From Phoronis australis (taxonomy: Eukaryota > Animalia > Phoronida), in contig NMRA01000166.1 of the NCBI GenBank assembly GCA_002633005.1, positions 715,620-779,619 on the forward strand: a stretch of 64,000 nucleotides of DNA, in the 5' to 3' direction. Position numbers and translations under genes: made by a program. The notes beneath the pieces were generated by a model. The model worked only from the letters and a program-made list of their open reading frames with translations, made no database searches and had not been told where the DNA came from. Shown piece after piece: positions 23,211-64,000 of this stretch (position 1 is the first letter of the stretch; each line of letters opens with the position of its first letter).

Positions 23211-23257
<47 letters not shown>

Positions 23258-29200: not shown

Positions 29201-32200
29201 ATGTGAACATTCTGCCGTGTTACATAGTACTTAATTTGGTATATATTTTCAAATTTTGAACAAGAATACCCTTTGAGATATGGACTTTAAGCCAGCTCAT
29301 TCGTCGAACTCGGGAGAAGTAACTTTAACGATAGCCTCAAGCTATTGAAGTATAATAGGCGCAACTCCAATGTCTTATGTAAATTAACACGTGCATAAAC
29401 GTATTGGATTTCAAGAGTGGCGTACGCCATGCATATGGATCACGTTGAACCTACTTACCAAACCCGGCGGCCTCTTCTTACACTCGATATCTGAAAATTG
29501 ATTTTGGCATGTGTTACAAGTGACGTTGCAGCTACCAGGGAGTCTGGACTACGTTAGATTAAAGCTACGATATATCCTGCTATGGTGTTACCGTCAACAT
29601 TCTTCACCACCGTATTTGCTTTTGGAGAGCAAAGTGATCGCGTTCTTAGTTTTTATTTGAATCGAAATTGGTGACAAATAAGAATTCCCGGCCTTAGTAG
29701 TCGATCATACGCCATTGGCAACTAAAACTAACCCGCCGTAGCAATGACCCTAACAGGCGTGGTCTGATTCAAATGACAACCTGTCTCCGTAGAAATCATT
29801 TCTAAACTGAGTAAGAAGTTAAACGAGACTGGTTTTATAAAAGTGCGTGGCCTACACATAAATCAAAAGTTGGTTTTGGCAGAAGTCATGGGTTCATTTG
29901 CTCAAATTGTCACAGCATATTTTGCGTTTCGTCGACCACTGCTGACCCAAATTGTCAATATTGAGAAGTTGTATCAAGTTGTATCAAGTTGGGACGTCGT
30001 AGCAATAAATGTTTAAAAGTGACAGAGAATTCTGGCTAAAAAATATTGGGCCGTTTTGTCAACATGGGCGCGCACTAATTATATAACATGCCTATAGTAT
30101 GCCCGCCAACAGCCCTCAGCAACTGCATGAGTTGGTTGTCTGCAAATAATTTCCCCAGGCGTGAGCCAATCTACAAGTAAGACGCTTTCCTGGTTTGCTG
30201 TCATGTTGGTTGGTCTACAAGAGTGTGTCTTTCGCAAAGACATTTACCAGGGGATTAAACTTTCAAAAATAGAGGTTGACTACAACAGTATGCACACAAA
30301 CAAGCCAGTAATGAAAACGAAAATACTTTGCACACCCGACTCTAACGGTGAATACATGTATGACATGCTCACTGGCGTAGCCAGAAGTTTTCAAGAGGGG
30401 GATTAAACGCGAAATTGATGGCGACCATAAAGATGAGTGGCGACAGCGTTGACGGGTTTTCAAAACTGAAATGAGTGCCGGCTAAGGGGGGGGGGGAGCT
30501 TTTTTTGTANGACATGTTAAGTGCCAGAAACGTACCAGGATGCATGGAAATGTCACCGTTTGTCTACAAAAATAAAACGTTACCCCCCGCTCGGCGCCAC
30601 ACGCCTCGGATTCGACCTTAGCGGGAATCGTAACCCCCCCCCCCTTACTGAAAACGTAGATTTGCCACTGAACAGGGGTCTTATATCAACGTGGGTAGCC
30701 GACTTCTTCTCATACACCTGTGAATAGCTACCGTTGCAACAATCACTTGTAAACAAAAAGTAACTATTTTCAGCTCGTAAAATGGAGAACACGCGCCTAT
30801 CCCATCACTGTAGGTAGAACATTTCCCTGGCACAAGATGAAGCGGCAGTAAACCCACGTTCTTAGAAGAAACATTCCAAACTTTTGATTAAGACCACTGG
30901 AACCGCTACAAAATTGGTTTCAATTCTTTCCTTATTCTGACGCGAGGTATTTCGTCTTACAAAGAACTAACGGTTCGCTGTTGTTTGAGACCATGCTAGG
31001 CGAAGAAATTGACAGGGGGATCACTTATATTGGCAAGGTGCCCGCAGGCGTGCACCAAAAATTGTTGCGAGACTCCCTATTGCGGGTGCCAGGTCTGCTA
31101 ATTCCCATCCCTTTTTGCGGGGTAAATTTTTCTGTCACATCCTCTTTTAAAAATTACCGTGACATTTTTTTCTTTCCTTTAGTTATTTGTACAGATGGTC
31201 ATGGGCCTAAAGTACAACAAACAGCAATACACAAGCTGTCCCGTTTTTAGATGCGTAGTATACATATTTCACAACTGATTATCAGGATTACATAACAGTC
31301 TATGAAATCTAAACAAAGAGGGATTTGTCCAGAGGCTCTCACTTAGAAACTTAGCTCTGATTTCGGAAAAAGCTTCGCAAACTAACAAAAAGTGATATTT
31401 ATCCTCGAGCATAATGTACACACTCTGTCTTGATATATCACATTTACGTGACGACCAGTTTCTACTGCCAGTCTGTGGTTTGCACATCGAAAACGTGTAA
31501 AATTTTGCACGAACACTTTTGGAAGATTATCAATTTCTAAATAGTTTTCATGTTCAAATACAACCTTAAATTTTTCATAATATTTTAACTTAGAATCGGA
31601 ATCAACATCGGACTGCCATCTTTGCAAAGTACAATCCTTAACACGTTGTGAGAAAATATTTACAAACGACTCTTGACATGCAACTCCTTGGTTTACCCAA
31701 ACTCTATAGAAACCATACATTGACAATAAATTGCTGACTGATCTTGCCCAACGACAGTTTAGTGTCCTATTGGATCGCGCGCGAGTCCCGCAAAACATGC
31801 TGAAAAGTACCGACTAGCCGTAATTTCTGGTACCCGCCTGCGGCATCTTGTCAATATGATTGACCCCCGGGTCAAAAATGAGCTTTTAGTACGATAAGTG
31901 GCATAAATCAACATGCTTTTTAGTCCAATGCGAAATCAATAGCGAGCCGCTTTAGTCGTTGGGCCAACTTGGGCTGCTGTGACACTGGGGCCTGTAGACT
32001 ACCATAGATGAACCACAGTAGAGGACCAAATTGACACAAGCAAGAATTATCTAGATAATTTGGACAAAGTGTGTCAATTTTGGGCCGATAATAGTGACCC
32101 AACTGGTCACATTCCATTCATTACTATTAAAATTCAGAAACAATAATTACGATTATTTTGGTGTTGACTTTAGCCTACATCGGTGCGATAATTAAGCAGT

Positions 32201-39588: not shown

Positions 39589-42500
39589 CTGAAACGAAAA
39601 GGCATCAAAGAATTTGGGGAAAGAATAGGCCCATTTTAAATGTTTGCTCTAGTTTAACTTTGCGCTACTTGTGAGTTTTCAATAACAGAAATATGAAGTA
39701 AGGTCAAGGCACAATATGAAATCGATGGACGACATCAGTAAAATTAAGCAACACGTCAACAACATTTTGCTCATAAGAAATACATGTGGAACACAAAGAC
39801 AGACTATTAGCAAAAGTCATTAGTTTGACCTTCCCTCCAAATGACCTTGCATCAATATAAACTAATGATGTTGATGCAAAAACAACGATAACCAGTCATA
39901 TTTCTAAAATATTGATTTCTACAGTGATTATTACATTTCTGTAGAAAACAGAATGTCGCAAGCTAACGAAATTTTAACCTAGATGGAAAGGCACTCTGGA
40001 GCACGGTTACAAAAACATACAATATTACTGTGATTACAGCTCAAAGAGGTGATTAATCCAAGATTCTATTTTTTGCTTTTAGTGTCTTTCCATGACCCTG
40101 CTGTGGTTGCCATGGTATATCAGAAGCATAATCGCTACAACTTCAGCCTGGGATAATGAAACTGCTTTTAGTACCAAAGCTCAGTTTGCTTGCAATGACA
40201 AAAAATCCAGCACTTAGCAACTTTCTAACCAGCATGAAATCCATCTGGTAAATTCTGCTGAAATGACCCAGTAGTTATGGCTAACTTTCAGTAGATACAA
40301 ACCTCATTGTAAGGTGAGAAAATAAACTGGAATATGATGAGGATGCCTATGAGAGTGGGCTGGCTGGTGAACCCGAACGCTTCGTAAAGCACTGTCTTGT
40401 TCATTAGATAAGCAAAGACCATGAAACAGAGGAATGTGTTAACCTGGAAAAACAGTTGAGTAAAGCAAAAATTAGATCAAAACATTCAATACTTGCTGTT
40501 GTGCAAAACAGTATATCCCAGTGTAATAGCAATAGTACCGAAACACCACTACATGTAACAGTAAACAAAACACTTTAGAAATAGGATTCAAAATTGCACT
40601 CATGTCACTTCAAATACACCCATGATTTATAACCATTAGCTGGTACTGTCCTGTACTTTTTTATGTCATTTACGACATTACCAATCTGGACAGGGAAACA
40701 GTGTTCTCCCTGAAAAGCAACAACTTTACCAAGGGGCTTGAAAACAATAGCTCATCACAACAGGAAGTTGAATCCACCTCACAACTTTGGCGAGAACTTT
40801 CCTAAGAGGCGTGGGGAAAATTAGGCTTAAGACAGGGACTTGAACTTTGACTAAGGATGGACAAGGGCTTTGGGAAGATGAGGGCTTTGGGAACAACAGC
40901 TTGATAAGATGGGGAATTTAACTACTAACAATGACTATGGGAACAATAGCTTGTCAAGTCAAGGAGTTGAGCTTTGACACGGGCTTTGGGAAGACAAGGG
41001 CTTTGGGAACAATAGCTTATCAAGACAGTGAATTGAACTTTGACAAGGGGTTGGGAAACAATAGCTTGTGGAATTGTGAATCTTGTTATTTCAGTCATTA
41101 TATCACTGGGTATACAGTAGAAATACAAATATGCGCAAACTACATTAAACAATCAAAAGCACTTACTTGGCCAATTACCAAATTCTTGAGATTGTGACTC
41201 AATTTCCAGTGGCCCAGCTCATGTGACAGTACTGCCAACACTTCTTCATTGGTACACCCTAACTTCTCAGTCTTTTTCTCAGCTGGAGAATCACCCTACG
41301 GGCAATGTGTATGGTCAGGCAATGGACAATTTCTTTTAAACACATTCAAGGAGTCTGATCTTGTGATTTCCATGCATATTCAATGACTATACGTTAGTCT
41401 TATTGGACACTTGCAAATTATCAATAGGACAAAAAGTTCCCTTGATGAATTCCCCAATGTCGTTGAAATTAGTTTAAAATAACCAATTTGAAAAATATTC
41501 TTCAAAATATTTGAATAATTTGTTTCGTGTTTCACATTCAACCATAAAGCAACTTTTAAGACATGCGTTCAATAATCTCTTTACTGCATTTTCTTGTGTT
41601 TCGTTTTCTTCATCTTGATCGTCTGCTGACTTAGTGCTGTTGTCTTCTGCTGTACCCTCCCGCTCTTTGATTGGTGTATAGTCAGCTAATAGGGTGTCAA
41701 ACAGCACGATGCGCTTGTTGTTGAAGAAACCGTAGAAGTAAGCATTGCTGTGAGAAGACCTCTTAGAACCTGAATTAAAGGACATTATGGGACTAATTCT
41801 CTACGCAGTTAGTAAGTACCACATGTAGCCATATCTTTAGAAATCTTTGTTTTGAGGACAGATCTCAAAGTTCTTGTTCTGCGAGTTCAGTGATTGGTGA
41901 TATGACTCGTCACCTTGAACTTGTTTTACTACAGTCGACATGACTTAATCAGGCCTGCCAGCAAGAGCTTTAAAAAGACTTATGAGCAGTGACCAGTAGA
42001 ACCTTTGGCAACAACTATTTGTGGTCATACTTTCATTTAAAGTCATATAAAACTTAGTCTTTGAAACTTCTGACTTTGCCTGGATTGCATATTAAAAGTA
42101 TTCTAAGAGTAGACACCAAATTAACGTTCCAAATTTCACAAGATCACAAAACTGACCAAATGGGGTGGGTCCACTTGATGGCTGCTACGACAGTTCAAAG
42201 GTGGAAATTTTGATGTGGTATAATTATCGCTGTATCTGGCTGTAAATTGCTTGCTTCTAGATTAGGCTCAGATGCAGTTTTAAATATACACAACATAGCA
42301 AACATTAGCTTAGAAATGGGTGTGGTTCTTAACTGCCGTTGTCCATAACAGGACATTTTACTTAGAACTCATTATGAAATGATTATTTTGGTAATGGTCT
42401 CATATTATTCATAACTTAAAATGCTAGGACATTGATTGTGTGTTCATACGCTATTCATATGGAGTTTTGCAAATCAACATAAACATGAAACAGTGTCAAA

Positions 42501-45500
42501 ATCCAACACCATATCTTGTCATAACACCAGCTTATAAATACAATTATAGTGAATTGTCAATGCTTACAATTTAGTTTTACATAAAAATCTATTTGTAAAA
42601 GCCCTATTATCATTCTGTTCAAAAATGATCAGAACCACTCACCATCCACTACATACAGCTTCTTCAGAGGAAAGTTGATGCTGGCAGCTAAAGTTTCAAT
42701 CTGTGTCCTCAGCTCACCCTCAGGAAGAGGGGTGAACTTGTCAAACAAGGGGGCAATGTAGTCAGCGTAGACAGTCACCAGTATCTGTGGTGGAATAGAA
42801 ATGATAAACTCAAGAACAACACCATAAGAATGATATGCAATGTAGTATGAATCAAATAAACCTGTGCACTTTACATGGAAATAAAGCCACTTATCAAATC
42901 ACACAACTAAGCCCATTTCATCAGGTCTTATTTTGTAAACTTGGGAAAATGCTAACAGGATGCAAAATCCTGTTCTGTTGATTTCACCATGGCAACTGAA
43001 AACTGATTATATCACCTATATTGCCAGTACTTCCCTTGAGAGATAAAATGATTATTCAGCAAAGACACTTCCTCAGGGAGTCACAAGATGGATTGTGTGT
43101 TTTGAGTTGGACGGCTTTCCCAATGAACTCTTCCAATGTCCAAGGTGCAATTTACACTAGCTTGTCAATTCATTGTAATTGATAACCTTATTGACATCCT
43201 GTCACATTTCATAAAATAACATTTTTAGAGTTAAAATAATATGCTTTTTGATACCTCCATGATTAAAAATTCTGAATTCACCTCTTGAAATGTTGAAAAA
43301 TTATTGATAACCACATGACTGATGTTTCTGTGAAAAAAGTAATTTTTACTTTGAACAAAAATTAAAGAACTTCAAATGCAGGTGACTTAGTGTTTGAACT
43401 ATATATTCTTACTGCCAAAACACAGATACTTTTGTCATAGGTTTTTGATTTACCTTAAAACAACAAATATATCAGAGACAGACATTAAAGTTCTTCTTCA
43501 AAAAAAGGTCTTAACTTTTCATTTTTGGCAGCCAACATCTCTGTTTTTCCGGGGGAAATTAAAAATCTGAGACAAGATTTCTTCAATCAAAGAGCACACT
43601 CAGCAAGTTTCTAGTCATGAGTACCTACAAGTAGTCCATGTGATTTTTGTTTGCAGACCAGTTTTTCCTATTTCACTATTATCTCAAATGGCTTATGTTC
43701 AATTCTTGTTTATTTATTAAACTTTTTCATTGTTCTTATCAAAAGTCAGTGAGATTAAACTTTAGCTAGCGTTGTACTATGTCTGCGAATAGAAGTATCA
43801 GAATGTATTGTATTGCATTGTTATGTGTGCTCACCAATGAAATGACAAACGTGAAGAGCCAAGCATAGATGAAGAAGTAGTCACCACCCCACTTGATAAC
43901 GTAGATAAGGCCAGCCACAATGGGAGCTGAGATCAGCATCATCACCACAAACTTCTTCAACGTGTCTTTTAGGAAAAAGCCCAGTGTCTGTGAAGATATA
44001 ACCAAAACATATAATAATTACTTAGACTTAAACTCATAATATACATAATAACCATAATAATGATAATGATAACACTCTATAATACACAGTGGCAATTGAC
44101 CTCCACAATAAAAGTAATCATAGTAATAACATAACAAAACATAACACTAACAATATAACACAGCAATTTCAAAACTAAAATTTTCACAACTGAGTTACAA
44201 CTGTGGTTCAAGATCATGTATTTGTTATATTTATAAAGTGCTTTGCACTGTAACCAGTGTCCAAACCAGCCAGCTGGCTATTTTTAGGTCAAGCTCAATA
44301 TTAACACCCTCAATTGTTTTAATCAAAAATTTAACAAACCAGTTTGATTTATATACCATGTATTATACATCAGTGTGAAGCTCATAAAATCAGCTTCATC
44401 TCTATCATATTAATCTGGAAGATAACTAAATTATATGCTGCTGATGACCAATGGAACACCGTAATGGTGTAAAATACAACAGTTTTCAATATTCTCATCT
44501 CATGCAATTTAAACACAAATAACCAAAACATATGACTATAAGTCAATTAAAACAAGGGTAGAAGTGTTCTGAAATCAGTATCAAGTGTCCATTTCAAACA
44601 CGAGGCCTCAGAACAACAGGTAAATCAAGTTAAGTTACCGGTGTGCAAGAAGACTGGAAAATCCCATGCTCAATATGGAATCCTAGACCAATATTGCTCA
44701 ATTAGCCAATCACAAACAGTCTTTCATGAATACTTGGGACCTTATGCCTTGTCTGAAGCAACCCAGCCTAACTAGGCCCTTTTAAATTATCTGATTGGCC
44801 CTTATTTTTTAATTGAGTTTGACCTACTTAGGTGAATGCTGGTCAGCCGGATACATCTGGCATTAGCCAGACAGGCTGGAATGTTGAGACCCGTATGAGC
44901 CTGGGCTTAGCAGCAGCAGGGTTTTAAGACAGGCCACAGTATTTCGTTATTTTACATTTCACCTATTTCAACCAGGTAAGATGCACAGACACAAAAATAA
45001 AGGCCAATTTAAAAATGAACGTTAACTTAGATGAGCCAGGCTACAGCTAACATCATATACTTAATGTCCCTTGAGTCTGGACATGTAAACAAAAATTTAC
45101 TAATTTACCAGAAACGAAATTTTAAACATTTTATTCAAACAACTTTTTTACTAACAAATGATGTATTCAATATGATTTCCATCATCGACCATACAAAGGA
45201 TTATGAGCTTTGGAAAAGTATACAAACTCAATGTTATACATCCTATCCAAATTGCATCAATATTAGAAAATTTCTTCCTCATGGCTTCAATCAAGTGTGT
45301 TGCATTCGTTCTGTGATTTCCAACACACTCTCCTTCAGCACGCTCCACAAACAGTAGTTAAAAGGCCAAGGTCAGGCAAAGGAGGTGACTGCAAAACTAT
45401 GCTTAACAGGATTAGACTTGAGGAACATCTTGATGTCTCATTGTAGACAACTAAATTTAGGGAAATTGCATGAAGGTAATTGTGGTAAGTCTGCTTGACT

Positions 45501-48500
45501 ACCGTACCTGTTTGTTGAAGCCGTGCCTCTCCTCAATAACAAATGTGCTGTACAAACTGAAGGGCAAGCCAGTCACAGTACTGTATACGGAAGCTAGGAC
45601 CACAAACACGACAGACTGAAGAATCTGAAAAGAAAGGGTAAAGTAGAAATGGAGAAATAATTTCACAAAGCCCAAGTCTAATAGGTTCAAACTTCCTACG
45701 CTTAGCAACTGAAAAACTAATGGAGCTATGAACTCGTGTTGATTTAGACAAGGAATAAAAATCTTAAAAAAGCCTTTTAAGATACTTGCCTCATACTCAG
45801 GACCATAGTCGTACTTAGCCAGCAAGTATCCAGACACTCTCCACAGCAAAGGGATACCATAAAACCACAGAATAAGCTATGAAGAAGAAAACTGGTGTTA
45901 ACATGCACTGAAAGCGTTCCATTTCCATACAATTAGGCGTATAAGCGCATAATAACAATTGACTTCTAACAATGTGATGACAGTTTTCAACTACGGCAAT
46001 CATATATGGAGAATTCAGGTGATTTCATCTATGGTGCAGCTGTCCTTTTTCAAATGCATTGTGGGATGGCTGCCGATTCATAAACATCTGGTGACAATGT
46101 GGACAAGTGGGGAATGTGCAATTTGATTGATAATCTCTGTTTTGGGTGGCATTTTAGGTAACTTCAGCAAGCTCTTGATGGCACATGCCTGGAGAATCTC
46201 TCACAGAAAGGATAATGTTGCAGTATGATTTGATGCATTTTGAGGCTCATTTTCAATCATTTCATTTAGTAAGCCTGTTGCACTTGAACTGTGAGCTCAA
46301 ACATCAAGGGCTGATTTCCATCATATTGCTTTCACACCAAGCTACCTGTAATGTCACCAGATGCTTACCAGCCAACTACTGCAGCATCGTAGATGAATTC
46401 CCCACAATGTCTGCCTCAATAAATATCTGGTAAATTGTACTAATACCCAGTCTTGACCTTTTATCTCACATTTAAACCAAAATTGTTTTTCTAGCTTGAA
46501 AAGTAAACATTTTGCAATAAAAAATGTTCCAACATGTCACTCTTGCGTGAGAAAGGAATATAAGTGGGATAGAAAACAACTTACAGTAGATTCCACCTGA
46601 GACCACAGCCCTGACCAAAATCCAAAGTTACTTTTGTCAAGCTGATACAGTCTTGCCTTGTTAAAGGTATCTTGATCCAAAACACCAGTCAACTCATTAG
46701 GAACCTCGGTGACAGTTTTCAACAGATAACGCTGTAAGTAAAAACACACGTTTGGCATAAACATGTAAACATAAAGAAATAGAGAAAGAAGTAACTCTTA
46801 TTGAGTATTGCACACCCAATGCAAAGCACAGGAATTTGATTCCTATACACCTGTATACTCATGGTGCTGTTGGAGTTCGGAGTCCTGTGACCACAGATAT
46901 CCCCATAAAAAGTTAATCATTTCAAAATACAGCAAATAATATTGAATGAAGAATACATATACCGGTATACACAGTGACAAATAATATTGAATGAAGAATA
47001 CATATACCGGTATACACAGTGACAAATAATATTGAATGAAGAATACATATACCGGTATACACAGTGACAAATAATATTGAATGAAGAATACATATACCGG
47101 TATACAAAGTGACAAATAATATTGAATGAAGAATACATATACCGGTATACACACTGACAAATAATCGACACATGCCATGACTCTGGAGACACTTTAATCA
47201 ACATAATTTGAACATATCCATGAAAATCTGTCGAGGTTCACTCGAGCTTCCCTTGCCAGGTGCCATTTTGAGGGAGTCACGCAAAATCACGAAGTTCATG
47301 AACAAAAAGTCCAAGAGACACAAATACTAAAAGTTCCTCCAAATATCCTCCCATGCTGCTTTTTTCAAGTGTCAACCACCAGTTCATTCACTCTGCACAG
47401 TCTCTTGTTTGACGTAACTCGCATGACGTTAATTGAAATACTGTGTGGTTATTGCGTAGTGAAAAAGTTAACGGCGACCAAAAAAGAAGTTGGAATTCTT
47501 CGCTAGTCATCTTAATTCTCACAGACATGCTCCATCCAGGATATGCATAGAACCAGAAAGGATCACTGCAGAAAGTAAGCAGTTTATAAGAGACAATTTT
47601 AAGTGTAAAATATATTTTTTGACGAGATGAAAACCTCTTATTCGATGACCGATATGGGCTATCACCAGATGAAAATACATGGGGATGACATTAATACCAA
47701 TACCACTGAGGAATGTTGAAGACCCTTTCCAGCAAGCCGAGGGGCTACGTCTTGCCTAATCCACGCATTGCTAGTAATTGATGTCAACAAAAAGAAGAAA
47801 GTCTTAAAGATTTCCTAGCTGCAAGTTTCATTTTTCATCAGTCTGCGTGTTAATAGATATGATTCTGTGAACACAGCGATAAGTGACAAAATTTAGCACT
47901 AATAATGAATTTCATCCATGTCTTGTCTTGTAAATCCCTGCAGTTATTTGACGCAGCACCGTTTTCAGATCTAGTATCTACGGACAGAAGTTCATGCAAG
48001 TACACAATCAAATCTTCAGTAATGATCCTATGCGGAACGATCACAGATGCAGGCAGAAAGCAAGAAAGCACTTGCATTTAGCAGTTATGTCTAGGGAAAA
48101 TTACGGCACAAAGGATGCAAGACATAGCAGAGCACAATAAGTTGAAAATAGATTTCAGGGTCACTGGGCATAATCCACAGCGTTATCATAACCTACAGCA
48201 CTAAAAAGAAAGTGAGAATCTCACTGGTTTCCAGTGAGATTCCAGTTAGATTCTCACTAAATCACCCATTACAGTTAGAAATGCCAGTGAGAATCCAGTG
48301 GGAATTGAACAGCTGAGCCAGTCAGTGAGAAATAGTGAGAAAATGTTATGTAACAATTAGAATCCAGTGAGAATTTTGGTCTTAGAAACATTTTGAGTGA
48401 GAAACCAGTGAGAATTTTGGTCTTAGGAATTTTCAGAGTGAGAATCCAGTGAGAATTTCAGACTTAGATAACTTCTGAGTGAGAATTGAGTGAGAACTTG

Positions 48501-49921
48501 GACTTGCCACAATTGGAGTGAGAATTCAGTGAGAATTTAAGATAAACAAACACCCTGATAGGCTGTTCCTGTGGAAATTTCAGTTGAACCAGATTTCTGA
48601 ATTCAAACTAAAATGGCGCCAGGAATGAGCACTTAGAGAAATAGCTTGAAGATTGCTGACGTTTTTCTCACAAATATTGTGAAATTACTGAACAGTTTGT
48701 CTGCAAGTCAACCAGAAGGGATTCTGGACTGAATTTATGAGTTAATAACCTTAAGGTTAGTAAATTTCATACATCTAGTAGAGTGCATGAAGCACCAGTA
48801 TTAGACTGATGTCTTCCTTCTGTGTTGACAGTTGAGTTTTTAGTATTTTGCTGATTTACCAAAGGCATTAAAATTGTAAGTTCAAGTCTGCTATATTTCA
48901 CAATTAGCAACTAAATTGCACCTTTTGTCAAATTTCAAGATAAACTCACAAAAAAGCAGTGTTTTGGTTTCCAACAAAGCTTTAACTCTCATCCAGTCTC
49001 GTTCAGTCAGTGGTTATAAATACACACACACAATTTTCTAAGTTCAAAATTCTCACCCAGTGAGATTTTCACTCAGTGACAATTTCACTAAGACAAATTC
49101 TCACTAATTTGTATAGCATTCCTACTCAGTGAGAATTTCAGTGAGACAAATTCTCACTGAGTGGGAATGCTTAAGCAAATTAGTTAGATTCTCACTGAGT
49201 CAGTTATAACGGCAAATGACTGGGGTGAAAACTGCAGATTTGGTGTTTCAGTCCTTCGTTCAGTTGAAAAAATCGGTAATTGGCCATTTTTACACTGCTC
49301 ACTGCTCGCACCAGGGAGCATGACGTCATATCCCCTGCCTCTGACACGAGCCTAATTGTAACAATGGTCAGTTTGGGCAACTGAATGAAGTACTGTTTGA
49401 AAAAAATGTTCGATTGCTGGAGTATTTGTTCGAGCTGGGAATAATTAAGATGTCAACGACCTCTTGGATGTACTTATAGCAACGTGACTTTGATGGTTTT
49501 ATCAGTGTAGTAAGGCATAATTCGTCAGAAAGCTTCCGGCATATGAAGGCCCCTATGCCTATGCGTAACATCACCGTCTGGACTACTAAGTAGAGACAAT
49601 GTAACTGTCTAGCCTAGTATTAGGCAATTACATCGCCCTGGATGCCGCAGGCCAACCGAGGGCGTACGTGTTGCCTAGCCTAATCTACTCTAAACTGACT
49701 ACGGACAGTAGAGTAGAGTTTATTGGTTGAACATGTTGTTGAAAACAAAACCGAGGTGGGTAGTTATTAGAAAAGACTGTAACTAAGGGTGTTATGAATC
49801 GTATTTCAAACACTGAGTTATTGCAGACCTGACGGGATGATAAGTACGCCTCCCACACGTACATGATCCACATAAATATCATAACAGCAGTGAAAATATC
49901 GCCTGCAAGTGGAACTTCCAT
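39370..49921 (-). CDS. ZMPSTE24: CAAX prenyl protease 1 (zinc metalloprotease STE24 homologue, peptidase M48), 10 exons, 470 aa
   Basis: Exons 49829-49921, 46585-46731, 45790-45876, 45508-45624, 43835-43987, 42643-42784, 41585-41769, 41167-41295, 40303-40443 and 39370-39588 splice in frame (1413 nt). Motifs: [32 protein letters not shown] (HExxH), [13 protein letters not shown]. Confidence 0.97.
40303..40443 (-). CDS. ZMPSTE24: ZMPSTE24 exon 9
   Basis: [47 protein letters not shown]. Confidence 0.95.
40840..41065. repeat. Degenerate intronic minisatellite (GGGCTTTGGGAACAATAGCTT-type units)
   Basis: Repeated TGAACTTTGAC / GGGCTTTGGGAA motifs. Confidence 0.7.
41167..41295 (-). CDS. ZMPSTE24: ZMPSTE24 exon 8 (HExxH)
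   Basis: [31 protein letters not shown]; acceptor position less certain than donor. Confidence 0.9.
41585..41769 (-). CDS. ZMPSTE24: ZMPSTE24 exon 7
   Basis: [27 protein letters not shown] plus acidic loop. Confidence 0.92.
42643..42784 (-). CDS. ZMPSTE24: ZMPSTE24 exon 6
   Basis: [48 protein letters not shown]; not in the ORF track, read directly. Confidence 0.95.
43835..43987 (-). CDS. ZMPSTE24: ZMPSTE24 exon 5
   Basis: [13 protein letters not shown]...[18 protein letters not shown]. Confidence 0.95.
45508..45624 (-). CDS. ZMPSTE24: ZMPSTE24 exon 4
   Basis: ILQSVVF...[20 protein letters not shown]. Confidence 0.95.
45790..45876 (-). CDS. ZMPSTE24: ZMPSTE24 exon 3 (GC donor)
   Basis: [16 protein letters not shown]...GPEYE; ends GAG|GCAAGT. 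Confidence 0.9.
46585..46731 (-). CDS. ZMPSTE24: ZMPSTE24 exon 2
   Basis: [14 protein letters not shown]...[14 protein letters not shown]...EST; AG / GTAAGT. Confidence 0.95.
46933..47165. repeat. 45-bp tandem repeat x5 in ZMPSTE24 intron 1
   Basis: Unit AAATAATATTGAATGAAGAATACATATACCGGTATACACAGTGAC. Confidence 0.95.
48196..49297. mobile_element. Element with many subterminal GTGAGAAT/ATTCTCAC repeats (possible CACTA/CMC-like non-autonomous)
   Basis: Direct repeats on the left and inverted copies on the right; termini uncertain. Confidence 0.4.
49829..49921 (-). CDS. ZMPSTE24: ZMPSTE24 exon 1
   Basis: [31 protein letters not shown], donor CAG|GT. Confidence 0.9.
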
Positions 49922-55200: not shown

Positions 55201-56391
55201 CAGTAATGGCCACTTGAGTGGAGCAGAATATGTTGAAAATCACAGTCAGTCGTGCTGTTGTCAGTGGGGAAACATTTCTAGTTTTTGACTCTTCAATTGA
55301 GCAGCTTGACAAATACTGACTTCCACCAGTGGCACAAAAATGTCAAATTTGACCAACATGTGGCACACAATACAACTAATCCATTCCAAAATAAAGACAT
55401 GTTGTCATGCCTTCAAGAGAAACCTACTGTCTAGATGTCTTGGAGTCTGTCAGGGGACTCTTAATATACTGAGGTAAGATTAAAAAGACAAAAAATGTTA
55501 GTAGAGGTCACATTCAATGTGAGATCAAACCGAATGTCATCAAGATTTGTTGTTAAATTCATAAAAAAGCATTTGCCAAATTTCACAAAAAATTATACAA
55601 GAGGATCATAAGAAGATACAATTTCATTTGCAAATCAAATTGTAGGTAAGAGGCACCACAGTCATTGGACCTATCCAAAAGCCAACGTCAGCCATGGTTT
55701 GCTCTAACAGAAGGAGTATGTCTGTCAATTAAAATCCTTGGCACTGGTTTGGCAGATAGAGAGACAGATTCCAAAAAGTCCCGACTTTTAAATAACAAAA
55801 ATTCCACTAAGTGGTGCAGAATTCACCGAATCCATCCAAAAATTGGAATAAGTTGTCATATCTCCTACTTACCTGCTGAATTTAATGAAAATCTGTTAAC
55901 AAAATCTGAAGATACCACGGTAAACATACAAAAAATAATAAATGTCACTAAGGGTCACAGTCGTATTCGGATCCTTCTGAGAGTCGTCATCATCGTTAGT
56001 CGTCATCTTGATAGCATGACACATTCTAAACTTTATGAAAATCCAACCTGAGGTTAAGGGAGCACATCTTTGGCCCTAACAATACAATATTGCAACACAA
56101 CTGTGCCCAAATAGTTGGATTCTTCTCAACAGTTGCCAATATTCCTCATGATCCTTCAAGGCAAACAACAAAAATGAACACAGAAATAGTAAAATGGCTA
56201 TTGGAAATAAAGTTGCCTTCCTTGGCCATATTCCAAAAAAATTTGAAATTCTGTTGTAGAGACAGTTGTTGTCTTCAGCCAATGTTCTCTGAATGTCACA
56301 TAGCCACCAGTGATGTACGGAGTGTATCTGAAACGTGTGTAAAGGAAATACATAAACATTAGGCAACACAAGTACATCATTCAGACAAAAC

Positions 56392-58199
56392 ACAAGAGCA
56401 ATGCAGAGTGTTGAAATGCGCCCACGAATGCACCGCTAACGGTGTGCTTCTAGGGGTGTTTATTTGGAATATAAAAATAATGGCCACTAGAGTGGCGCAA
56501 AATACGTCGGATCCATCCGAAAACTTGTATGTGTCATCAAAGCTAATTACAAAATTTCATAAAAATCCGTCAAGGAACTTCTGAGAAACAGGAAAACGAA
56601 AAACTAAAATTGCTGCTAAGAGGCTATAGGCGCAAAAAAACATAACTGCCACTAAGAGGTGCCACAGTAGATAAAGTCGTGGGAAAATCATGGTCAGACT
56701 TTCACATTAGGAACAGACATGTCAATTTCCACAACCATCCTTAAGAGTGGTTTGGTTAAAAGAGGGGCAGAAGCCAAATAACAAGACTTGAAAACAGTAA
56801 AAATGGCCACTAGGTGGCACAAAATATCATGAATCAAACAGAAATCCGAAGGATAGGGCCAGCTCACAAATAGATACCTATCAACCAAATTTTATGAAAA
56901 TCCGTTGAGGACCTTTGAAGATAGTGATAAAATTAAAAAACTAAAATTGCCACTAGGGGGCACACTGGTAGTCGGATCCATATCCGAAAGTCGTCATCAT
57001 TTGTTGTGAAGCTCATATAAATACACTTGCTAACTTTAATGAAGATCCTGCATACATGCCAATTTCCACAATCATCCTTAGAGTGGTTTGGTTGACAGAG
57101 GGGCAGATGCCAAAAAACTCGAAACAGTAAAAATGGCCACAAGGTGGCGCAAAATGCCTCGAATTTAACCAAATCCGAATGATAACATCACCTCCTGTAG
57201 AGCATTTAGAAGATACAGACATGGGCGCAAAAACAAACAAAACTGCCACAAGGAGGCGCCATAGTAGTCGAAGTCATCGGAAAATCATCACCAGCCGCCC
57301 TCTTTACAGTAAGAACATATATGCCAATTTTCAAAATCATCCCTAGAGTGGTTTGGTTAATAGAACAGCAGACGCCGAAAACCAACTCGAAAACAGTAAA
57401 AATGGCCATTAAGTGGCACAAAGTACCTCGAATCTGTCCGAAAATGAGAGGATGGCATCACCTCACTAATAGATGCTTAACTACCAAATTTTATGAAAAT
57501 CCGTTGAAGATCTCCAAAGATACAGAGGTAAGCATAAAACATTAATTAAAATTGCCACTAGTGGACACATCGGTAGTCGGAGAGTCCAAAATTTGTCATC
57601 ATTCGTCGTCAGCTTCATAGGAGAAATTCTGCCAAATCTCATCAAGTTCCTGTAAGAGGTTTAGGAGATACAGCCATGGGCGCAAAAACAAACATAACTG
57701 CCACTAGGAGGTGCCACAGTAGTCAAAGTCATCAGAAAATCATCGTCAGCCGCCCTCTTTACAGTAAGAACATATCTGCCAATTTTCGAAATCATCCCTA
57801 CAGCGGTTTGGTTGATAGAAGAACAGACGCCAAAAAACAGACTTGAAAACAGTAAAAATGGCCACTAGGGGGCGCAAAGTACCTCGATTCCGACTGAAAA
57901 TGGGAGGATGACATCATCTCACTAAAAGATGCCAAGCTGTCATATTTTACGAAAATCCATTGAGGACTTCCAAAGACACAGGGGTAAGCATAAAAAACTA
58001 AAATTGCCACTAGGGGGCACACAGGTAGTCGAAGAGGTCCGAAATTCATTGTCATCTGTCATCAGCTTCATAGAAACACATCTCCCAAATTTCGTTAAGA
58101 TCCTCTGAGGGGTTCAGGAGATACAGCTGTGGACATCGGACGCCCGGACAGAGATGACAGCAATATGCGACCACATGTAAATAAGGGGGCGCATAAAAA
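56392..58199 (+). mobile_element. HINE family B, near full-length, with internal tandem array
   Basis: ACAAGAG 5' end, subterminal ATGCGCCC / GGGCGCAT, repeated AAAACAGTAAAAATGGCCACTAGG units, CGGAC-type repeat near 3' end. Fragments also at about 13380-13760, 14760-15760, 23735-23790, 38400-38756 and 55140-56070. Confidence 0.75.
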
Positions 58200-58402
58200 C
58201 ATATCCCATCTATGTATTGAAATGCACTTCGAGACTTTAACTGAGATTCATTGTAGCCTACAGTGCTTAATTGTCCCTCTTACCCATAAGAGATATAAAA
58301 ATCAATTAATGATGGTACATTTTCTAAAACATAGTTACTGTACTCTTGTTCAGAATAAACAATACAGTTGCTTTATACAGGCTTCCCAATGTTGACCTGT
58401 GC

Positions 58403-58516
58403 TTAAGTGGACGTCTCCGAAGATGCTCTTCCAGACCCTGCGTGTCGTAAGTCTATGTACTTTTGTGCAGCACTCAGTAAGCCCGTCAATGTCTTCACTG
58501 TATCGGCTTGGAAGTC
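58403..58516 (-). CDS. NRF1-like gene last coding exon
   Basis: DFQADTVKTLTGLLSAAQKYIDLRHAGSGRASSETST*; CTACTTCAG acceptor. Confidence 0.6.
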   Translation of the reverse strand, partial: DFQADTVKTLTGLLSAAQKYIDLRHAGSGRASSETST

Positions 58517-61500
58517 CTGAAGTAGAATGTCATCAGTGTACATGCATGCGTAAAAAAATGCAATTTGAAACACGCTCCATTCGTTTGTATGAAAGGTGGT
58601 TAAAAATACGTATATTCAGAACACTTTCCCCTATAACATTGGCAACAACTTTTTCCGTGGTTTCATGATTTACAAAAAACTTACAGTTAGTTCTTCAATG
58701 CACTGATGGTCCATTTTCACTTAAGAAACAGTTAAAAGAAAAACTTTATATCGGCAAGTGATCTAAATCAAAATCATATGATATTTGTGACAGGTTAATT
58801 GACACATTCGGCCATAATGTTCAATACACCTTAAACAATAGAACATAAATTAAACAGTAACTGTTGCTTTTAAGATCAATCTGAAAACCACAAGATGATC
58901 AAAACAAAGTTTTTCTTTCTTGAATTTTTGAGCCAATTCTACATTCTGCATCACTGCATCTATTCATAATTTCACAAGTTAGTAATCAGTGGATAAATTT
59001 ATCTTTACTTCAAAGCATTAAAAAATTCCATATAATCTATGAATACGGACTATTTGTTTCAATAAATAAGACGTTGCTTTATTTGAAATCCATGAAAAAA
59101 CCAACTGTCATTCTGCATGCCTTACATTGGCAAGAGCTCTTCTTATTTCTTCAAAGATACAATTTAGGCTCACGTTCATCGTTGACGCTTTGTTATTCTG
59201 GTCACTATCAAAATAACAAAAACACTCATCACACAACATTCAATTTCTATGTGCAGTATCAGAACATAAATTATTCAAATGATATGCTTTCGCTTTGAAT
59301 CACTCTAAATCCAACATGCGTTATTATGAGCTGTCTAAACTTTTGACATTTATAGTAAAATTTCCTCCTGTGCACAAGGAAAGACAGTATTCAGAGTACA
59401 CCCTTGTTTTTCCCTTAATTTTACTATAAACAAAACATGTTCATGTGACCCAAGATATAGATAAACATCACGCTATCAACTGTAAAATGTACGTTTTTAC
59501 TAAGTAAAGATCTATGATTTTTGAAGGTAATTGGCTAAATACACATACAGGACAATATAGCCTTACATAGCCTTAAACACAAGATATACCTGTCACTCGC
59601 ATTAGCTATTGGGCCATCCTTATCATTCATGTCATCCTGATCACTCATGTCATGTTGGTCACTCATATCACCTTGGTCACTCATATCACCTTGGTCACTC
59701 ATGTCGTGTTGGTCACTCATGTCACCATGGTCACTCATGTCACTATGGTCACTCATGTCACCATGGTCACTCATATGAGATTGTTCATTCCTTTGACCTT
59801 GGACACTTGCGACAGCCTGGTCAATCAAGTCAGCTTGTACACTCGGGCAAGCTTGGTCATTCACACCTAACTCTGCACTATCACTGCCTGGAAGGTAACA
59901 TAGATACTAAAATATACAATATGTGACTATATTATCAATGAAAGTAAGCAGATCACAGACATTTATCATGTTGTGAATTCTCATGGCAACGTTATATGTG
60001 TCCACAGAGTGCCACTTAAAAGGGTGACATATTTTGAATACCAGTCATTCAATCGATGGTCTAGAGAAGGGTTTTATTACATTTTCAAACCAGAACTAAG
60101 ATAGAAAGTTTTAAAGTATGCACAAATCAGAGTGACTTGTCAGCTTTTCCAATGCTAATATGTGCTGGCATGGGTTGCTTTACAAAGTACAGGACATGAG
60201 AAAAATTTGTCCTCCGACTTTACCTTGAACATAACTTAATAACCATGTTTTTTAATCACAGTAATATACTACTGTGGCCTGAAAACCCTTGCAGGTTCAA
60301 TTTATGCGATGATCACTTTGCCTCCATTGGTGTATATGGAAAGGTATATGAACTAACTTAAAGGTAATACTATTACCGTTCTTGTTGAAAAACGAATCTG
60401 CAATTGCAACTAACTCTGTTCTTGTCAGTTTGGGACCTGCAAAATTATAATAAAAGTATTCAGTGGCTACAAAATACCATGTGGACAAAAAATGTTTACA
60501 TTTCTAAAATAGGTTTGGTTTCTACCATTGTAGCATCTCCGATGAACATTGCTGAAGTATTTATCTCTTAAAGTATGAATACATTTTAACCTTAACAAAA
60601 TTTGGTTACAAAATTCAAGTTTAGTGACCAGGAGATAATCTTTTTAGCAAAGGATATGCTTATACCGTAATCGTTCGGGTTAACGCCCTGGGCGGTTAAA
60701 TTGGCAAACCCAAAAAATCGGGGGTGGGCGGTTAACCAGACATGGGCGCTTAAACGTGAAATTTCAAGAAATCTAGGGTGGGCGGTTAANTGAAAAACGA
60801 ATCTGCAATTGCAACTAACTCTGTTCTTGTCAGTTTGGGACCTGCAAAATTATAATAAAAGTATTCGGTGGCTACAAAATACCATGTGGACAAAAAATGT
60901 TTACATTTCTAAAATAGGTTTGGTTTCTACCATTGTAGCATCTCCGATGAACATTGCTGAAGTATTTATCTCTTAGAGTATGAATACATTTTAACCTTAA
61001 CAAAATTTGGTTACAAAATTCAAGTTTAGTGACCAGGAGATAATCTTTTTAGCAAAGGATATGCTTATAGTTAGGATACACTTCCATGCTTTATGTCACC
61101 CTTATAGCTACCCTATGTTCTAACGCCTGATATTTATGCTTACCATTGCAGCTACTGTTGGGAGACTTGAACTCTACATTAACAGGCCACCACTCGGGCT
61201 TGTTCTGAGAATGCCAGAAGTACCGTGAACCTAAAAATGTCATCCCGAATTTTTAGATTATGTTTATGGTACAACCATTATCAAATTCTCATCCTAAAAG
61301 TTAGAATCTCAGTGATATTCTAATGAAACTATTATTAAAATCACTTGGTCTATTTACACCGAGCTCTTGTCTACTTACACCGTCACGTTTTCGTCGGTCT
61401 ATTCTCCGGCCATCATCAGGTGCTCCTATACGTTCTTAGAAGAATGGGCATGGTGTGATTTTTTGTCCAAGGTAGGATTTAAATCCATGACATCTGACGA

Positions 61501-62818
61501 TAGCCGGAGAATAGACTGACCGAAACGTCGTGATAGTGTAAATAGACAAGAGTTTGGTGTAAATAGACCAAGAGATTTATTATAATAGTTGTAACACGCC
61601 ACCACCTCAGAGCAGTTTTAGAAAGTCATTCCAATGAGAATCTAATCATAAAGATTCCATTAAAATTCTGTAAAAAAGAGATACAGTTTGCGCATTTATG
61701 TATGCCCTTAAAGACCCAATCAAGTGCACCATTTTGATGTCAGATTCAAAAGCATATTGAACATCCATGTGGTGTATTATATTGTCTCAGAAATATGAAG
61801 TAGACATCTAAATGCCACTCCACTAAATTGTGGTCCAGGAAAACCATTCTTTTCTCCACACAGACCATTCAACAATTACATGGTTCATACAAAAGGGCAC
61901 CCTGTCAAGTCTTCACCTGCAAGCATTTAGGCCTACATGTCTGCATTTTTAGCTGGTGGACCCATCTATCTCTTACATATGTTTGGGCGCATCTTGACAT
62001 CACCTCTGTCGGGAATCCACTGCCATAACAAATCCCAGGACCTTCATGAAATTTGGGTATGTGTGTCACTATGAAGCCCTGATGACATAATGTCTATTAG
62101 ATGAACTAGCTACCTGTGAGTCGCCCCAGGGGGTGGGGGTTCTTCAATGGTACTTTACGTTTAACTTAGTATCTAATGAATTGCTTGATGGGTTTTCACG
62201 AAATGTGACAAATACGTTTCTGTTATGGATGCGACTGGGCCTGGGCCAATTAAAACTGAAAAAGAATTTTTGTAGAATTTACCATTATACTTGCATTTTT
62301 AAAATCTATAGAAAACAGCAAGAGTAGACAACATACCGGAGGGGTTGGTAAGTGTTGGGATGAATGTCCTAAGCTTCCTCCGAGAGTAGGAGCGATAATC
62401 ACTTCGAGCTGCTAAAATCAGTGCAGAGAAATGTGTAGCTCAACATAGCTGCATCAAAATTTTATTCATCACAAAGCTTGTCCCAAGCAAATGAAAACTT
62501 ATATCATAAACTGAAACAATGACCGTAAACTATATAGCCCTCTGTGTAAGATGATTAGACTCTTTCTCTGACAAAAACAAAAATTATAGTTGTACTTATG
62601 CTAACACTATGATATAAAATGATTTTGTGACAATGGCTGCAAAAAGGGATTAGAAATGCTAATGTCCACTTGTTCGCCTAAAACCAAAAATATTTTCCGT
62701 ATCTGCCATATCAATACATTGCTAAAATTCATCCATAACGAGGAAACACCTTCAGTATTGTACAACTACATGAGTATAGATAACGTACCTAATACACTTG
62801 GACACCTCTTCTCCTCAC
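58403..62818 (-). CDS. Uncharacterised protein with divergent NRF1/Ewg-like DNA-binding domain and Met/His/Asp repeat; 5'-incomplete, exons 62789-62818, 62337-62411, 61144-61230, 60377-60436, 59590-59887, 59126-59204, 58403-58516
   Basis: All exons have AG/GT ends and compatible phases (1,1,1,1,2,0). The spliced product includes YSRRKLRTFIPTLTNPSGSRYFWHSQNKPEWWPVNVEFKSPNSSCNGPKLTRTELVAIADSFF, resembling NRF1 LRAFIP...KPIWWP. Confidence 0.72.
59126..59204 (-). CDS. NRF1-like gene exon
   Basis: DQNNKASTMNVSLNCIFEEIRRALAN, phase 2 to 0, GTAAG donor. Confidence 0.62.
59590..59887 (-). CDS. NRF1-like gene exon with MSD(H/Q)xD repeats
   Basis: Open frame with 18-nt coding repeats; CTTCCAG acceptor, AG|GTATAT donor. 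Confidence 0.75.
60377..60436 (-). CDS. NRF1-like gene exon (PKLTRTELVAIADSFF)
   Basis: TTTTGCAG acceptor, G|GTAATA donor. Confidence 0.72.
60665..60789. mobile_element. Left end of Tc1/mariner-type MITE inserted at TA
   Basis: TA|CCGTAATCG...; the empty site is visible in the duplicate at 61061-61075. Confidence 0.6.
61144..61230 (-). CDS. NRF1-like gene exon (KPEWWP)
   Basis: TTTTTAG acceptor, G|GTAAG donor, SRYFWHSQNKPEWWPVNVEFKSPNSSCN. Confidence 0.8.
61327..61626. mobile_element. Palindromic hammerhead-containing Penelope-type retroelement (copy 2)
   Basis: Same family as 15816-16283; HHR cores in both arms; TSD ATTCTAATGA/ATTCCAATGA. Confidence 0.75.
61491..61532 (+). ncRNA. Minimal hammerhead ribozyme motif
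   Basis: CAU-CUGACGA-UAGCCGGAGAAUAGACUGACC-GAAAC-GUC-GUG; stem II degenerate. Confidence 0.5.
62337..62411 (-). CDS. NRF1-like gene exon (RRKLRTFIP)
   Basis: TTTTAG acceptor, G|GTATGT donor, phase 1/1. Confidence 0.72.
62789..62818 (-). CDS. NRF1-like gene micro-exon (30 nt)
   Basis: Acceptor TTTATTTTCTAG, EEKRCPSVL, donor AG|GTACGT. Confidence 0.55.
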   Translation of the reverse strand: MRRRGVQVY

Positions 62819-63329
62819 CTAGAAAATAAAGAAAATCAATTTTGCATGTAGTTTGCAACTCAATTTCTGCCTAAGAGTAACAGAAACACAATGAATCTTC
62901 ACCAAATTGTTGAAGCTGTATTTCTCCCTGTTGAGAAAAACGAAAATTGTATTAGATGCCTTTCAGACTTGATCTCAATTAGGTATCATGAAAAAGCAGT
63001 CCAATGTAAGACCAAAAATCACTTCTATTCTGGATCAGCAACAACTCCAGGTCATTTTTTGTAGTAGTAAGAAAGATCAAAAGTTACTTTTTCCACTGAA
63101 CGTGGTTTTACTGAAGCTTAAAAATAAATGACACTGTTTTGAATGGTATTTTCTAATTTCAAATTTGTGAAAGCACAAAAAGGAAATAATTTTAACGTTA
63201 CTGGTACTTCATTTATGGAAAATATCCAAGCAACATCAACATGAAATGAGGGCAATGTGAGAGTACAAGTGCAGCTCAGGTACCAAACTGTTTAAAACTC
63301 AATGGATTGACAGAGACAAATATACTTAA

Positions 63330-63720
63330 AGTCCTTCTCTCATGCGTTGTTAACCCTTATTACATGGTTAGAGGATGTTATAAGGATCTAAGAAGTACCT
63401 ACCCCATAACTAATACACGATCTGTACTCGAAAAAAGTTTAAATCAACGCGCCACTCACGATTCGCACCTGAAGAACCACCGCCATTTTGAACTTGCCGC
63501 GAACCCGGAAGTACAATTAATTCAGGAACCCAGGCCGAGAAAACGCCGTCAGTGCGACTGGAGCAGTGCCTGTACTGTTACCAGCCAGCAAACGGGGATA
63601 AAATAATCGACAGCGCGCCTTGATTTTAATAAAATCAAACTACGGACATTTTTATCGAATTTGCTGAAGGAATGTGGCAAATAAATTTTGACAGAAATTA
63701 TTTTGCCAGACTCAAGACCG
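63330..63720. mobile_element. Kolobok-like element, second copy of the 28703 family (right end not identified)
   Basis: TTAA|AGTCC start; extended similarity to 28703-29090. Confidence 0.55.
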
Positions 63721-64000
63721 CAGCATATCGGACCCGGTGCGGATCGAGACTAGACACTGGCAAACGGTAAATGCATTCGGTTGCAAGCTGTTTTGTCGAA
63801 GTAAAATGGTCAAATCATAAATGCTGCATATATTCAAGGTTAGTTTCAGACACTTGCATGAAATTACGGGCTGGTTAATCCTGTGTCGCACTGCCGCGGC
63901 AGACCTTAGTTAGCCTCAGTCACCAGCTACCAGTGAAGACTATCGTCAAAATACAGCTTGTTAGTAGGTCTATACAGCTTTGCGCCAAGGCTACCCTTAG

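What the first reader, a model, noticed from the sequence alone, without database searches (positions are those of the whole stretch)
58403..62818. Cryptic micro-exon gene encoding a divergent NRF1/Ewg/P3A2-like DNA-binding domain
Seen: exons of 30, 75, 87 and 60 nt, mostly absent from the ORF track, splice to ...SYSRRKLRTFIPTLTNPSGSRYFWHSQNKPEWWPVNVEFKSPNSSCNGPKLTRTELVAIADSFF. Known: the NRF1 domain reads MTQAQLRAFIPEML...GWGKESCKPIWWPEDIPW...WTQALRTIVKNCY. The LRxFIP, W and KPxWWP spacing matches, but overall identity is too low for the true orthologue. Inferred: a lineage-specific NRF1-like transcription factor, or a transposon-associated/domesticated DNA-binding protein, fused to a novel repeat. 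The start codon was not found; a weak candidate exon lies at 62903-62927.
Basis: partly seen in the sequence, partly recalled or inferred. Interest (0 to 1): 0.7.

Follow-up and report, generated by a model that had tools for sequence, protein, structure and literature searches.

The report
Divergent NRF1-like DNA-binding protein gene
A small spliced animal gene, confirmed by RNA reads, encodes a domain predicted to fold like the DNA-gripping half of the transcription factor NRF1 but with two of its three base-reading residues apparently changed, so it is likely a separate regulator with its own DNA target.

Summary
The gene is real. Stranded RNA reads from three runs support all six junctions of a seven-exon, minus-strand chain (62818 to 58403; 77 junction reads, all GT-AG), open for 246 codons. 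The duplicated fourth exon beside the N is likely an assembly artefact. The start is unresolved: the proposed 62903-62927 exon has no read depth. The 87-nt exon hits Pfam PF11001 (fungal YDR124W-like) weakly, and its only remote hit is a sponge (Halichondria) family with tandem copies of the domain. A profile of those copies matches across three exons, and a model of one sponge copy matches the NRF1 DNA-binding domain best (Z 7.3; plant EIN3 3.9). The fold is therefore supported by proxy; the window's own spliced domain was not folded. By eye the R206 equivalent is kept, N242 and R244 are not, identity to human NRF1 is about a quarter, and no dimerisation domain lies in the recovered part. Verdict: a divergent NRF1-DBD-like protein, not the NRF1 orthologue, likely a DNA-binding regulator with changed specificity. 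Such domains are already auto-annotated in databases; ten paper searches found none characterised. No sign that the gene itself is mobile, but its 5' region overlaps a Kolobok-like element.

The parts
62789..62818 (-). Exon A, 30 nt; most 5' read-supported exon, frame open at its 5' end
   Evidence: 14 + 3 junction reads to exon B
62337..62411 (-). Exon B, 75 nt; predicted recognition helix (LRxFIP motif, NRF1 alpha5 equivalent); alternative acceptor at 62408
   Evidence: junction reads; adds signal to the sponge profile, 0 of 1000 shuffles reach it
61144..61230 (-). Exon C, 87 nt; long loop with the KPxWWP motif
   Evidence: junction reads; PF11001 E 4.4e-4; sponge protein E 6e-7
60377..60436 (-). 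Exon D, 60 nt; predicted closing helix of the domain
   Evidence: junction reads; aligns to the last helix of the sponge profile but not above shuffles, 97 of 1000 reach it
60791..61069 (.). 279-bp duplicate of intron plus truncated exon D beside a single N; likely two alleles joined by the assembler
   Evidence: 99% identical, 2 differences; skipped by reads; same pattern at N 27097
59590..59887 (-). Exon E, 298 nt; acidic linker with nine M(S/N)D hexapeptide units, likely disordered, one predicted helix before the repeat
   Evidence: tandem repeat 59615-59774, period 18; 27 D/E in 100 residues; nine units; single-sequence model pLDDT 60, pTM 0.18
59126..59204 (-). Exon F, 79 nt; start of the C-terminal segment, no Pfam match
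   Evidence: 5 and 7 junction reads
58403..58516 (-). Exon G, coding part up to the TAA stop; the 3' UTR continues towards 58260
   Evidence: 7 junction reads and read depth; no Pfam match
62903..62927 (-). Candidate 25-nt upstream exon, unconfirmed
   Evidence: in frame with good splice sites; zero read depth
63326..63706 (.). End of a multi-copy TTAA-flanked (Kolobok-like) element; holds a candidate promoter and start (ATG at 63486, GT donor after 63469), unconfirmed
   Evidence: 79% identical over 383 nt to 28699-29075 from the same terminus; high two-strand read depth with mixed flanks at 63326

Best explanation
This is an expressed, spliced animal gene whose N-terminal part is predicted to form one NRF1-type DNA-binding domain, and whose product likely acts as a nuclear DNA-binding regulator that would recognise a short site different from NRF1's TGCGC half-site. 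Shown: the exon chain, its strand and open frame. Inferred: exon B forms the recognition helix with the arginine that matches NRF1 R206, exon C the WWP loop, exon D the closing helix. The changed loop residues (N242 and R244 equivalents) would alter base read-out. The acidic repeat would be a flexible spacer or activation-type surface, and the last 60 residues may supply a partner or dimer contact in place of NRF1's dimerisation domain. It is a paralogous offshoot of the NRF1-DBD fold group, not the NRF1 orthologue.
For: 77 junction reads on six junctions. A profile of 52 sponge repeat units from 12 proteins aligns to chain residues 12-82 at 33.6 bits; exon B, which was not the search query, adds signal (0 of 1000 shuffles). 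The model of one sponge repeat (pLDDT 82) ranks NRF1 first among 48161 chains (Z 7.3 and 7.0, 80-81 residues aligned, rmsd 3.1-3.4; next row 4.1) and in Foldseek; the sponge profile also ranks 8K3D first by sequence (E 0.17). The Atlas's best cluster for exon C carries PF10491 on 60% of members (score 0.83, lead only). The domain segment is basic (14 K/R against 7 D/E in 85 residues). The NRF1 DBD alone is a monomer and binds DNA with Kd about 1.4 uM (PMC10810270, section 19). Outside the repeat, 5 of 8 read variants are synonymous (p 0.027 against an assumed 25%).
Against: The fold evidence is by proxy, and Z 7.3 is within the range that the tool calls possibly a common arrangement; Foldseek E is only 0.26. 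Exon D does not beat its shuffles (97 of 1000). Exon C alone finds no NRF1 chain in the PDB and no PF10491 match. The sponge repeats keep the R206-equivalent arginine in only 19 of 52 units, so base reading is not a fixed feature of this group. The fungal PF11001 proteins were of unknown role in the one paper read (PMC8545126, passages). The 5' end is open, so further domains could lie upstream. With the three variants inside the repeat counted, the tally is 6 synonymous of 11.
Confidence: 0.6

Rival explanations
1. The domain has the NRF1-DBD fold but works as a protein-interaction or non-specific chromatin-tethering module, not as a sequence-specific reader.
For: Two of three base-reading residues differ from NRF1 by eye; the arginine column is variable in the sponge repeats; LEM and SAP domains appear among the weak fold matches (Z 3.5 and below).
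Against: The helix motif around the R206 equivalent is the best-kept stretch against NRF1, and the segment is basic; the two best-fitting named fold matches, NRF1 and EIN3, are DNA-binding domains.
Confidence: 0.2
2. These exons are the 3' part of a longer gene whose upstream exons lie beyond 64000 and add other domains (a dimerisation domain, BTB, or more repeats). This changes the architecture but not the domain call.
For: No joint from 62818 to any place up to 63560 was listed and the 25-nt candidate has no depth; 7 of 47 gene-sense reads at 63470 keep the window's letter against 0 of 36 antisense (p 0.015), so transcription seems to pass through that point.
Against: An in-frame two-exon start exists inside the window and gives 261 residues; a 25-nt exon may be too short for the read tool, although it placed pieces of 21-26 letters elsewhere.
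Confidence: 0.45
3. The gene is an accessory or domesticated gene of a DNA transposon.
For: Its candidate promoter lies in a TTAA-flanked element with RR..YY ends, the signature of Kolobok (PMC9587614, passages).
Against: No second end of that element lies downstream of the gene; none of the ORFs listed from 50000 on was recognised by eye as a transposase; read depth on the coding exons is low and one-stranded while the element is deep on both strands; the Kolobok accessory proteins named in that paper are nucleases, a helicase and KolX, none NRF1-like.
Confidence: 0.08
4. It is a fast-evolved true NRF1/Ewg/P3A2 orthologue.
For: LRxFIP, W and KPxWWP match in order and near-spacing; the 5' end is open, so a dimerisation domain upstream is not excluded.
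Against: About 17 of 70 positions match human NRF1 by eye (alignment), whereas bilaterian orthologues are nearly invariant in this domain (recalled); N242 and R244 are not kept; exon C shares fewer than three 5-residue words with any protein of 71-2000 residues in the collection.
Confidence: 0.04

Closest known systems
NRF1 / Erect wing / P3A2 DNA-binding domain (Pfam PF10491; PDB 8K3D, 8K4L)
   Same: Order and near-spacing of the helix motif LRxFIP, the single W and KPxWWP; R206 and W224 equivalents kept (by eye); best fold match of the proxy model.
   Different: About a quarter identity; N242 and R244 equivalents replaced; shorter loops; no dimerisation domain in the recovered chain; acidic hexapeptide repeat and unrelated C-terminus.
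Halichondria panicea tandem-domain proteins (LOC135339482 to LOC135339529; uncharacterised; PF11001 with PF10491)
   Same: Profile match over exons B-D (33.6 bits); conserved Y, L, N, S-x-N-x-P-x-W-W-P, V-x-F; read-through ORFs of the sponge genes break at spots matching the introns after exons B and C.
   Different: Sponge proteins carry several copies each in a cluster of at least 12 genes on one contig and most end in a coiled-coil-like tail; here there is one copy, 19-35% identical (median 26%) to the repeats, and the tail is unrelated.
Fungal YDR124W-like helical bundle (Pfam PF11001, formerly DUF2841)
   Same: Exon C matches profile positions 47-66 (E 4.4e-4).
   Different: 20.7 bits is under the 31.3 cut-off; fungal; role unknown in the paper read.
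Plant EIN3 DNA-binding core (PF04873; PDB 4ZDS) and GTF2I repeat (PF02946)
   Same: EIN3: weak Pfam match of the sponge proteins at the WWP loop and Z 3.9. GTF2I: Atlas score 0.80 and Z 2.8 for the sponge repeat.
   Different: Weak, proxy-only matches; no direct match to the window's exons.

Membership tests
NRF1/Ewg/P3A2 (PF10491) | Three-helix DBD fold with long WWP loop (NRF1 201-284) | tested here: inconclusive
   Met by the sponge proxy (Z 7.3) to which the window chain aligns; the window's own spliced domain was not folded
NRF1/Ewg/P3A2 (PF10491) | Base-reading triad R206, N242, R244 | tested here: not met
   By-eye alignment to the chain shown with numbering from PMC10810270: R kept; S and N stand at the other two places
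NRF1/Ewg/P3A2 (PF10491) | N-terminal dimerisation domain (NRF1 54-172) | tested here: inconclusive
   Only about 11 residues precede the aligned domain in the read-supported chain, but the 5' end is open
NRF1/Ewg/P3A2 (PF10491) | Pfam PF10491 score at or above 23.5 bits | tested here: inconclusive
   0 of 4 single exons (B-E) match PF10491 at E up to 10; the spliced domain was not scanned
NRF1/Ewg/P3A2 (PF10491) | Orthologue-level identity in the DBD (near-invariance recalled) | tested here: not met
   About 17 of 70 positions by eye; no close relative
NRF1/Ewg/P3A2 (PF10491) | Binds GCGCATGCGC as a homodimer | not testable with these tools
   Needs a binding assay
YDR124W-like helical bundle (PF11001) | Pfam score at or above 31.3 bits | tested here: inconclusive
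   Exon C alone gives 20.7 bits; spliced domain not scanned
Halichondria-type NRF1-DBD-like repeat | Profile match over the whole unit | tested here: met
   33.6 bits over residues 12-82; fully shuffled maximum 7.9 bits in 1000 shuffles
Halichondria-type NRF1-DBD-like repeat | Several tandem units and the shared C-terminal tail | tested here: not met
   One unit in the chain; the last 61 residues score at most 0.5 bits against the stored proteins
Transposon-borne gene (Kolobok) | Gene enclosed by two element ends, with transposase, in many copies | tested here: inconclusive
   One element end upstream, none downstream in the window; no genome held, so copy number was not counted

The most novel reading that the evidence does not exclude
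The NRF1 DNA-binding domain is one member of an old, exon-shuffled helical module shared with fungal YDR124W-like proteins, the plant EIN3 core and perhaps the GTF2I repeat. Invertebrates redeploy it, free of NRF1's dimerisation domain, as phase-1 exon cassettes to build an overlooked class of transcription factors; this gene is a re-programmed single-domain reader that took its promoter and start codon from a Kolobok-like element.
Probability: 0.25. Interest if true: 0.68.

Novelty: new variant of a known kind. Interest (0 to 1): 0.42.

Why it matters
NRF1 is usually counted as a one-gene family in animals (1 in human, 0-1 in six tunicates, 3 in Branchiostoma floridae in Table 1 of PMC8122590). 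This gene and the sponge cluster suggest that its DNA-binding half exists apart from the dimerisation half, in divergent copies that Pfam catches only partly and that gene finders can miss because the domain is split over exons of 60-87 nt. If such proteins bind new sites, invertebrate transcription-factor lists are undercounted and the origin of NRF1 as a fusion of a MADS-like dimer domain with a mobile reader becomes testable. For now it is one uncharacterised gene with a proxy fold.

Tried and rejected
No genome is held for this window, so a canonical NRF1 and paralogue number could not be sought. The run index listed no RNA holder; the three raw-read runs came by species label. Word-based protein searches with exon E (0 hits among 182 candidates) and exon C plus flanks (no candidate) were blank. 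Exon C against PDB sequences gave one chance WW-domain row. Four metagenome loci for the exon C ORF were returned; the one examined, L001, is a chance match inside a 941-residue bacterial-type ORF without the WWP motif; the other three had the same match statistics and were not read. No relative of P0011 in viral contigs and no viral fold match at E 0.001 or better. No Rfam match in 56000-64000. hhalign of exon B to the whole-protein sponge alignment gave only probability 2%, E 0.023, in the expected register. tblastn of the chain against the window found only its own exons and the duplicate. The reading of 60791-60840 as a real alternative exon was rejected: it runs into an N, and no joint to it was listed. 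Earlier scan findings: nothing by place or sequence. Paper searches that found no description of stand-alone or divergent NRF1-DBD-like animal proteins, or of the NRF1/PF11001/EIN3/GTF2I link; the library lacks most subscription papers, and no supplements were read.
Full report
Observation. The window is animal-type genomic DNA (GC about 38%; intron-split genes and many dispersed repeats). Adding three downstream exons gives a 743-nt chain that is open in one frame for 246 codons and ends at the TAA at 58403; 2 of 20000 random chains of the same lengths were open in any frame. Three stranded RNA runs of the same species label (about a fifth of each read) were laid on the region. All six junctions appear, with 14, 10, 20, 18, 5 and 7 reads from 5' to 3', plus 3 reads for an acceptor one codon further in; five junctions are seen in 3 of 3 runs and the 59590-59204 junction in 2 of 3; all 77 reads have the first mate on +. 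Depth on the exons is low (mostly under 8 per bin). The three runs come from one study.

Assembly artefact. Positions 60386-60664 and 60791-61069 are a 279-bp direct duplication with two differences, split by a small palindromic multi-copy element and a single N. Reads go from 61144 directly to 60436. The same pattern occurs at the N at 27097. The simplest reading is two alleles, one with the small element inserted, joined end to end by the assembler (inference).

The 5' end is not settled. A scan for in-frame AG..GT micro-exons between 62819 and 63480 gave three candidates, of which 62903-62927 joins an ATG at 63486 followed by a GT donor, for 261 residues in all. That ATG sits in ETS-like and YY1-like motifs (names recalled), as does the start of the neighbouring CAAX protease gene. 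Against it: the 25-nt candidate has zero depth in 3 of 3 runs and no joint from 62818 upstream was listed up to 63560, though the tool may place very short exons poorly; in the wider lay 12 joints were not shown. The ATG lies inside a repeat: 63326-63706 is 79% identical to 28699-29075, from the same terminus, and that second copy runs from TTAA-AG to CT-TTAA over about 590 bp, the target and termini given for Kolobok elements (PMC9587614, passages). Most reads there come from other copies, on both strands. At 63470, 7 of 47 gene-sense reads and 0 of 36 antisense reads keep the window's letter (p 0.015), which fits either a promoter in the element or an intron read through it.

What the domain is. 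Of five single-exon peptides scanned against Pfam, exon C matched PF11001 (YDR124W-like helical bundle; E 4.4e-4, 20.7 bits, cut-off 31.3); none matched PF10491. In the Atlas its three best clusters carry PF10491 (60% of members), PF11001 and PF10491 (96%), with scores 0.83, 0.77 and 0.75, which the tool rates as leads only. Among 1.84 billion representatives exon C had one hit, a Halichondria panicea protein with five copies of the motif (E 6e-7). A further search gave 16 proteins among 116 candidates: 12 named sponge proteins from one contig and 4 unnamed short ORFs of the same family. They match PF11001, PF10491 and, weakly, the EIN3 domain. A profile of 52 repeat units from the 12 named proteins aligns to chain residues 12-82 at 33.6 bits. 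Exon B, which played no part in finding the first sponge hit, adds signal (34.9 bits with exon C; 0 of 1000 shuffles of B reach it); exon D does not (97 of 1000). Identity to the repeats is 19-35%, median 26%. The unnamed ORFs and three in-frame insertions in named proteins depart from the spliced consensus right after the glycine that ends the first helix region (6 cases, continuing G-M, G-I or G-V, as a phase-1 GT donor would read), and the four unnamed ORFs depart again a few residues after the conserved F of the loop. These match the window's introns after exons B and C; this is indirect, as sponge genomic DNA was not fetched, and NRF1's own intron positions were not checked.

Fold, by proxy. 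An AlphaFold2 model of one sponge repeat (82 residues, 15 rows, pLDDT 82) has a short strand, two long helices and a long loop. Against 48161 chains the two best rows are NRF1 (8K4L Z 7.3, rmsd 3.1, 80 aligned; 8K3D Z 7.0), then an unrelated chain at 4.1 and EIN3 at 3.9; a GTF2I domain scores 2.8. Foldseek ranks the three NRF1 chains first, with E 0.26 at best, and the sponge profile ranks 8K3D first by sequence (E 0.17). Each score alone is modest; they agree, but all rest on the sponge family. The window's own spliced domain was neither folded nor scanned against Pfam.

Comparison with NRF1. PMC10810270 (abstract, passages and section 19 read) defines a dimerisation domain (54-172) and a DBD (201-284), with R206, N242 and R244 reading the TGCGC half-site; the DBD alone is a monomer that binds with Kd about 1.4 uM. 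Aligning by eye to the chain, about 17 of 70 positions match; the R206 and W224 equivalents and KPxWWP are kept, N242 and R244 correspond to S and N. Only about 11 residues precede the domain in the recovered chain. After it come an acidic segment with nine M(S/N)D hexapeptide units, modelled with low confidence as mostly coil, and about 60 residues with no Pfam match and no likeness to the sponge tails. Of 11 read variants in coding positions 6 are synonymous; leaving out the three inside the repeat, 5 of 8: a weak sign of constraint.

Mechanism. Most likely (0.6) the protein enters the nucleus, lays the exon-B helix in the major groove with the kept arginine on a guanine, and reads neighbouring bases with a rewired loop, so its site differs from NRF1's; the acidic repeat and C-terminal helices would recruit partners. 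All of this is inferred. A non-specific or protein-binding role (0.2), a transposon gene (0.08) and a fast-evolved orthologue (0.04) are less likely. Independently, there is a real chance (0.45) that more exons lie beyond the window.

Novelty. Divergent NRF1-DBD-like proteins are already visible in databases and a table lists three PF10491 genes in Branchiostoma floridae (PMC8122590, passages), so the kind is known, but eight searches aimed at such proteins or at the link between these folds found no paper describing them. PMC11310086 (passages) mentions only NRF1 motifs. An earlier unchecked scan note reports an NRF1-type exon in a BTB gene of an arthropod; it fits the idea of a movable domain but was not tested. 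This gene's product was not returned by any protein search, so it may be unannotated; whether the genome is annotated at all is unknown. Verdict: a real gene, a new variant of a known domain kind, interest 0.42.

Noticed in passing
window 41474-49921 (-): CAAX prenyl protease (ZMPSTE24/STE24-like) gene downstream of the finding on the same strand; Pfam Peptidase_M48_N and Peptidase_M48 on two ORFs.
   Followed up: partly
window 28699-29290: Apparently complete ~590-bp TTAA-flanked element with short terminal inverted repeats (Kolobok-like); shares its first ~380 bp with 63326-63706.
   Followed up: partly
window 60663-60789, 61338-61625 and 15815-16284: Palindromic multi-copy elements in the gene's introns; the 61.3-61.6 kb one has a relative near 15.8-16.3 kb.
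   Followed up: partly
window 26684-27397: 300-bp duplication across a single N at 27097, the same likely assembly artefact as at 60790.
   Followed up: partly
window 23185-23598 (+): ORF end with a weak match to the Quiver/Ly-6-like domain (PF17064, E 0.004, under the cut-off).
   Followed up: no
window 6209-7763 and 31382-31813 (-): ORF fragments that look like decayed non-LTR retrotransposon reverse-transcriptase regions (by eye, recalled motifs).
   Followed up: no
window 56480-58190: Tandem-like array of a dispersed repeat family (units about 455-600 bp) just past the gene's 3' end, deeply covered by one-stranded RNA reads from other copies.
   Followed up: no
P0001, P0004-P0014 (Halichondria panicea, one 7.09-Mb contig): Cluster of at least 12 uncharacterised sponge genes, each with several NRF1-DBD-like repeats; one carries a precomputed PF27048 match whose name was not available. 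Possibly of more interest than the window gene.
   Followed up: partly
P0001 residues 224-306: Atlas features place the sponge repeat nearest to GTF2I-repeat clusters (0.80, lead only), a possible distant link between GTF2I repeats and the NRF1 DBD.
   Followed up: partly
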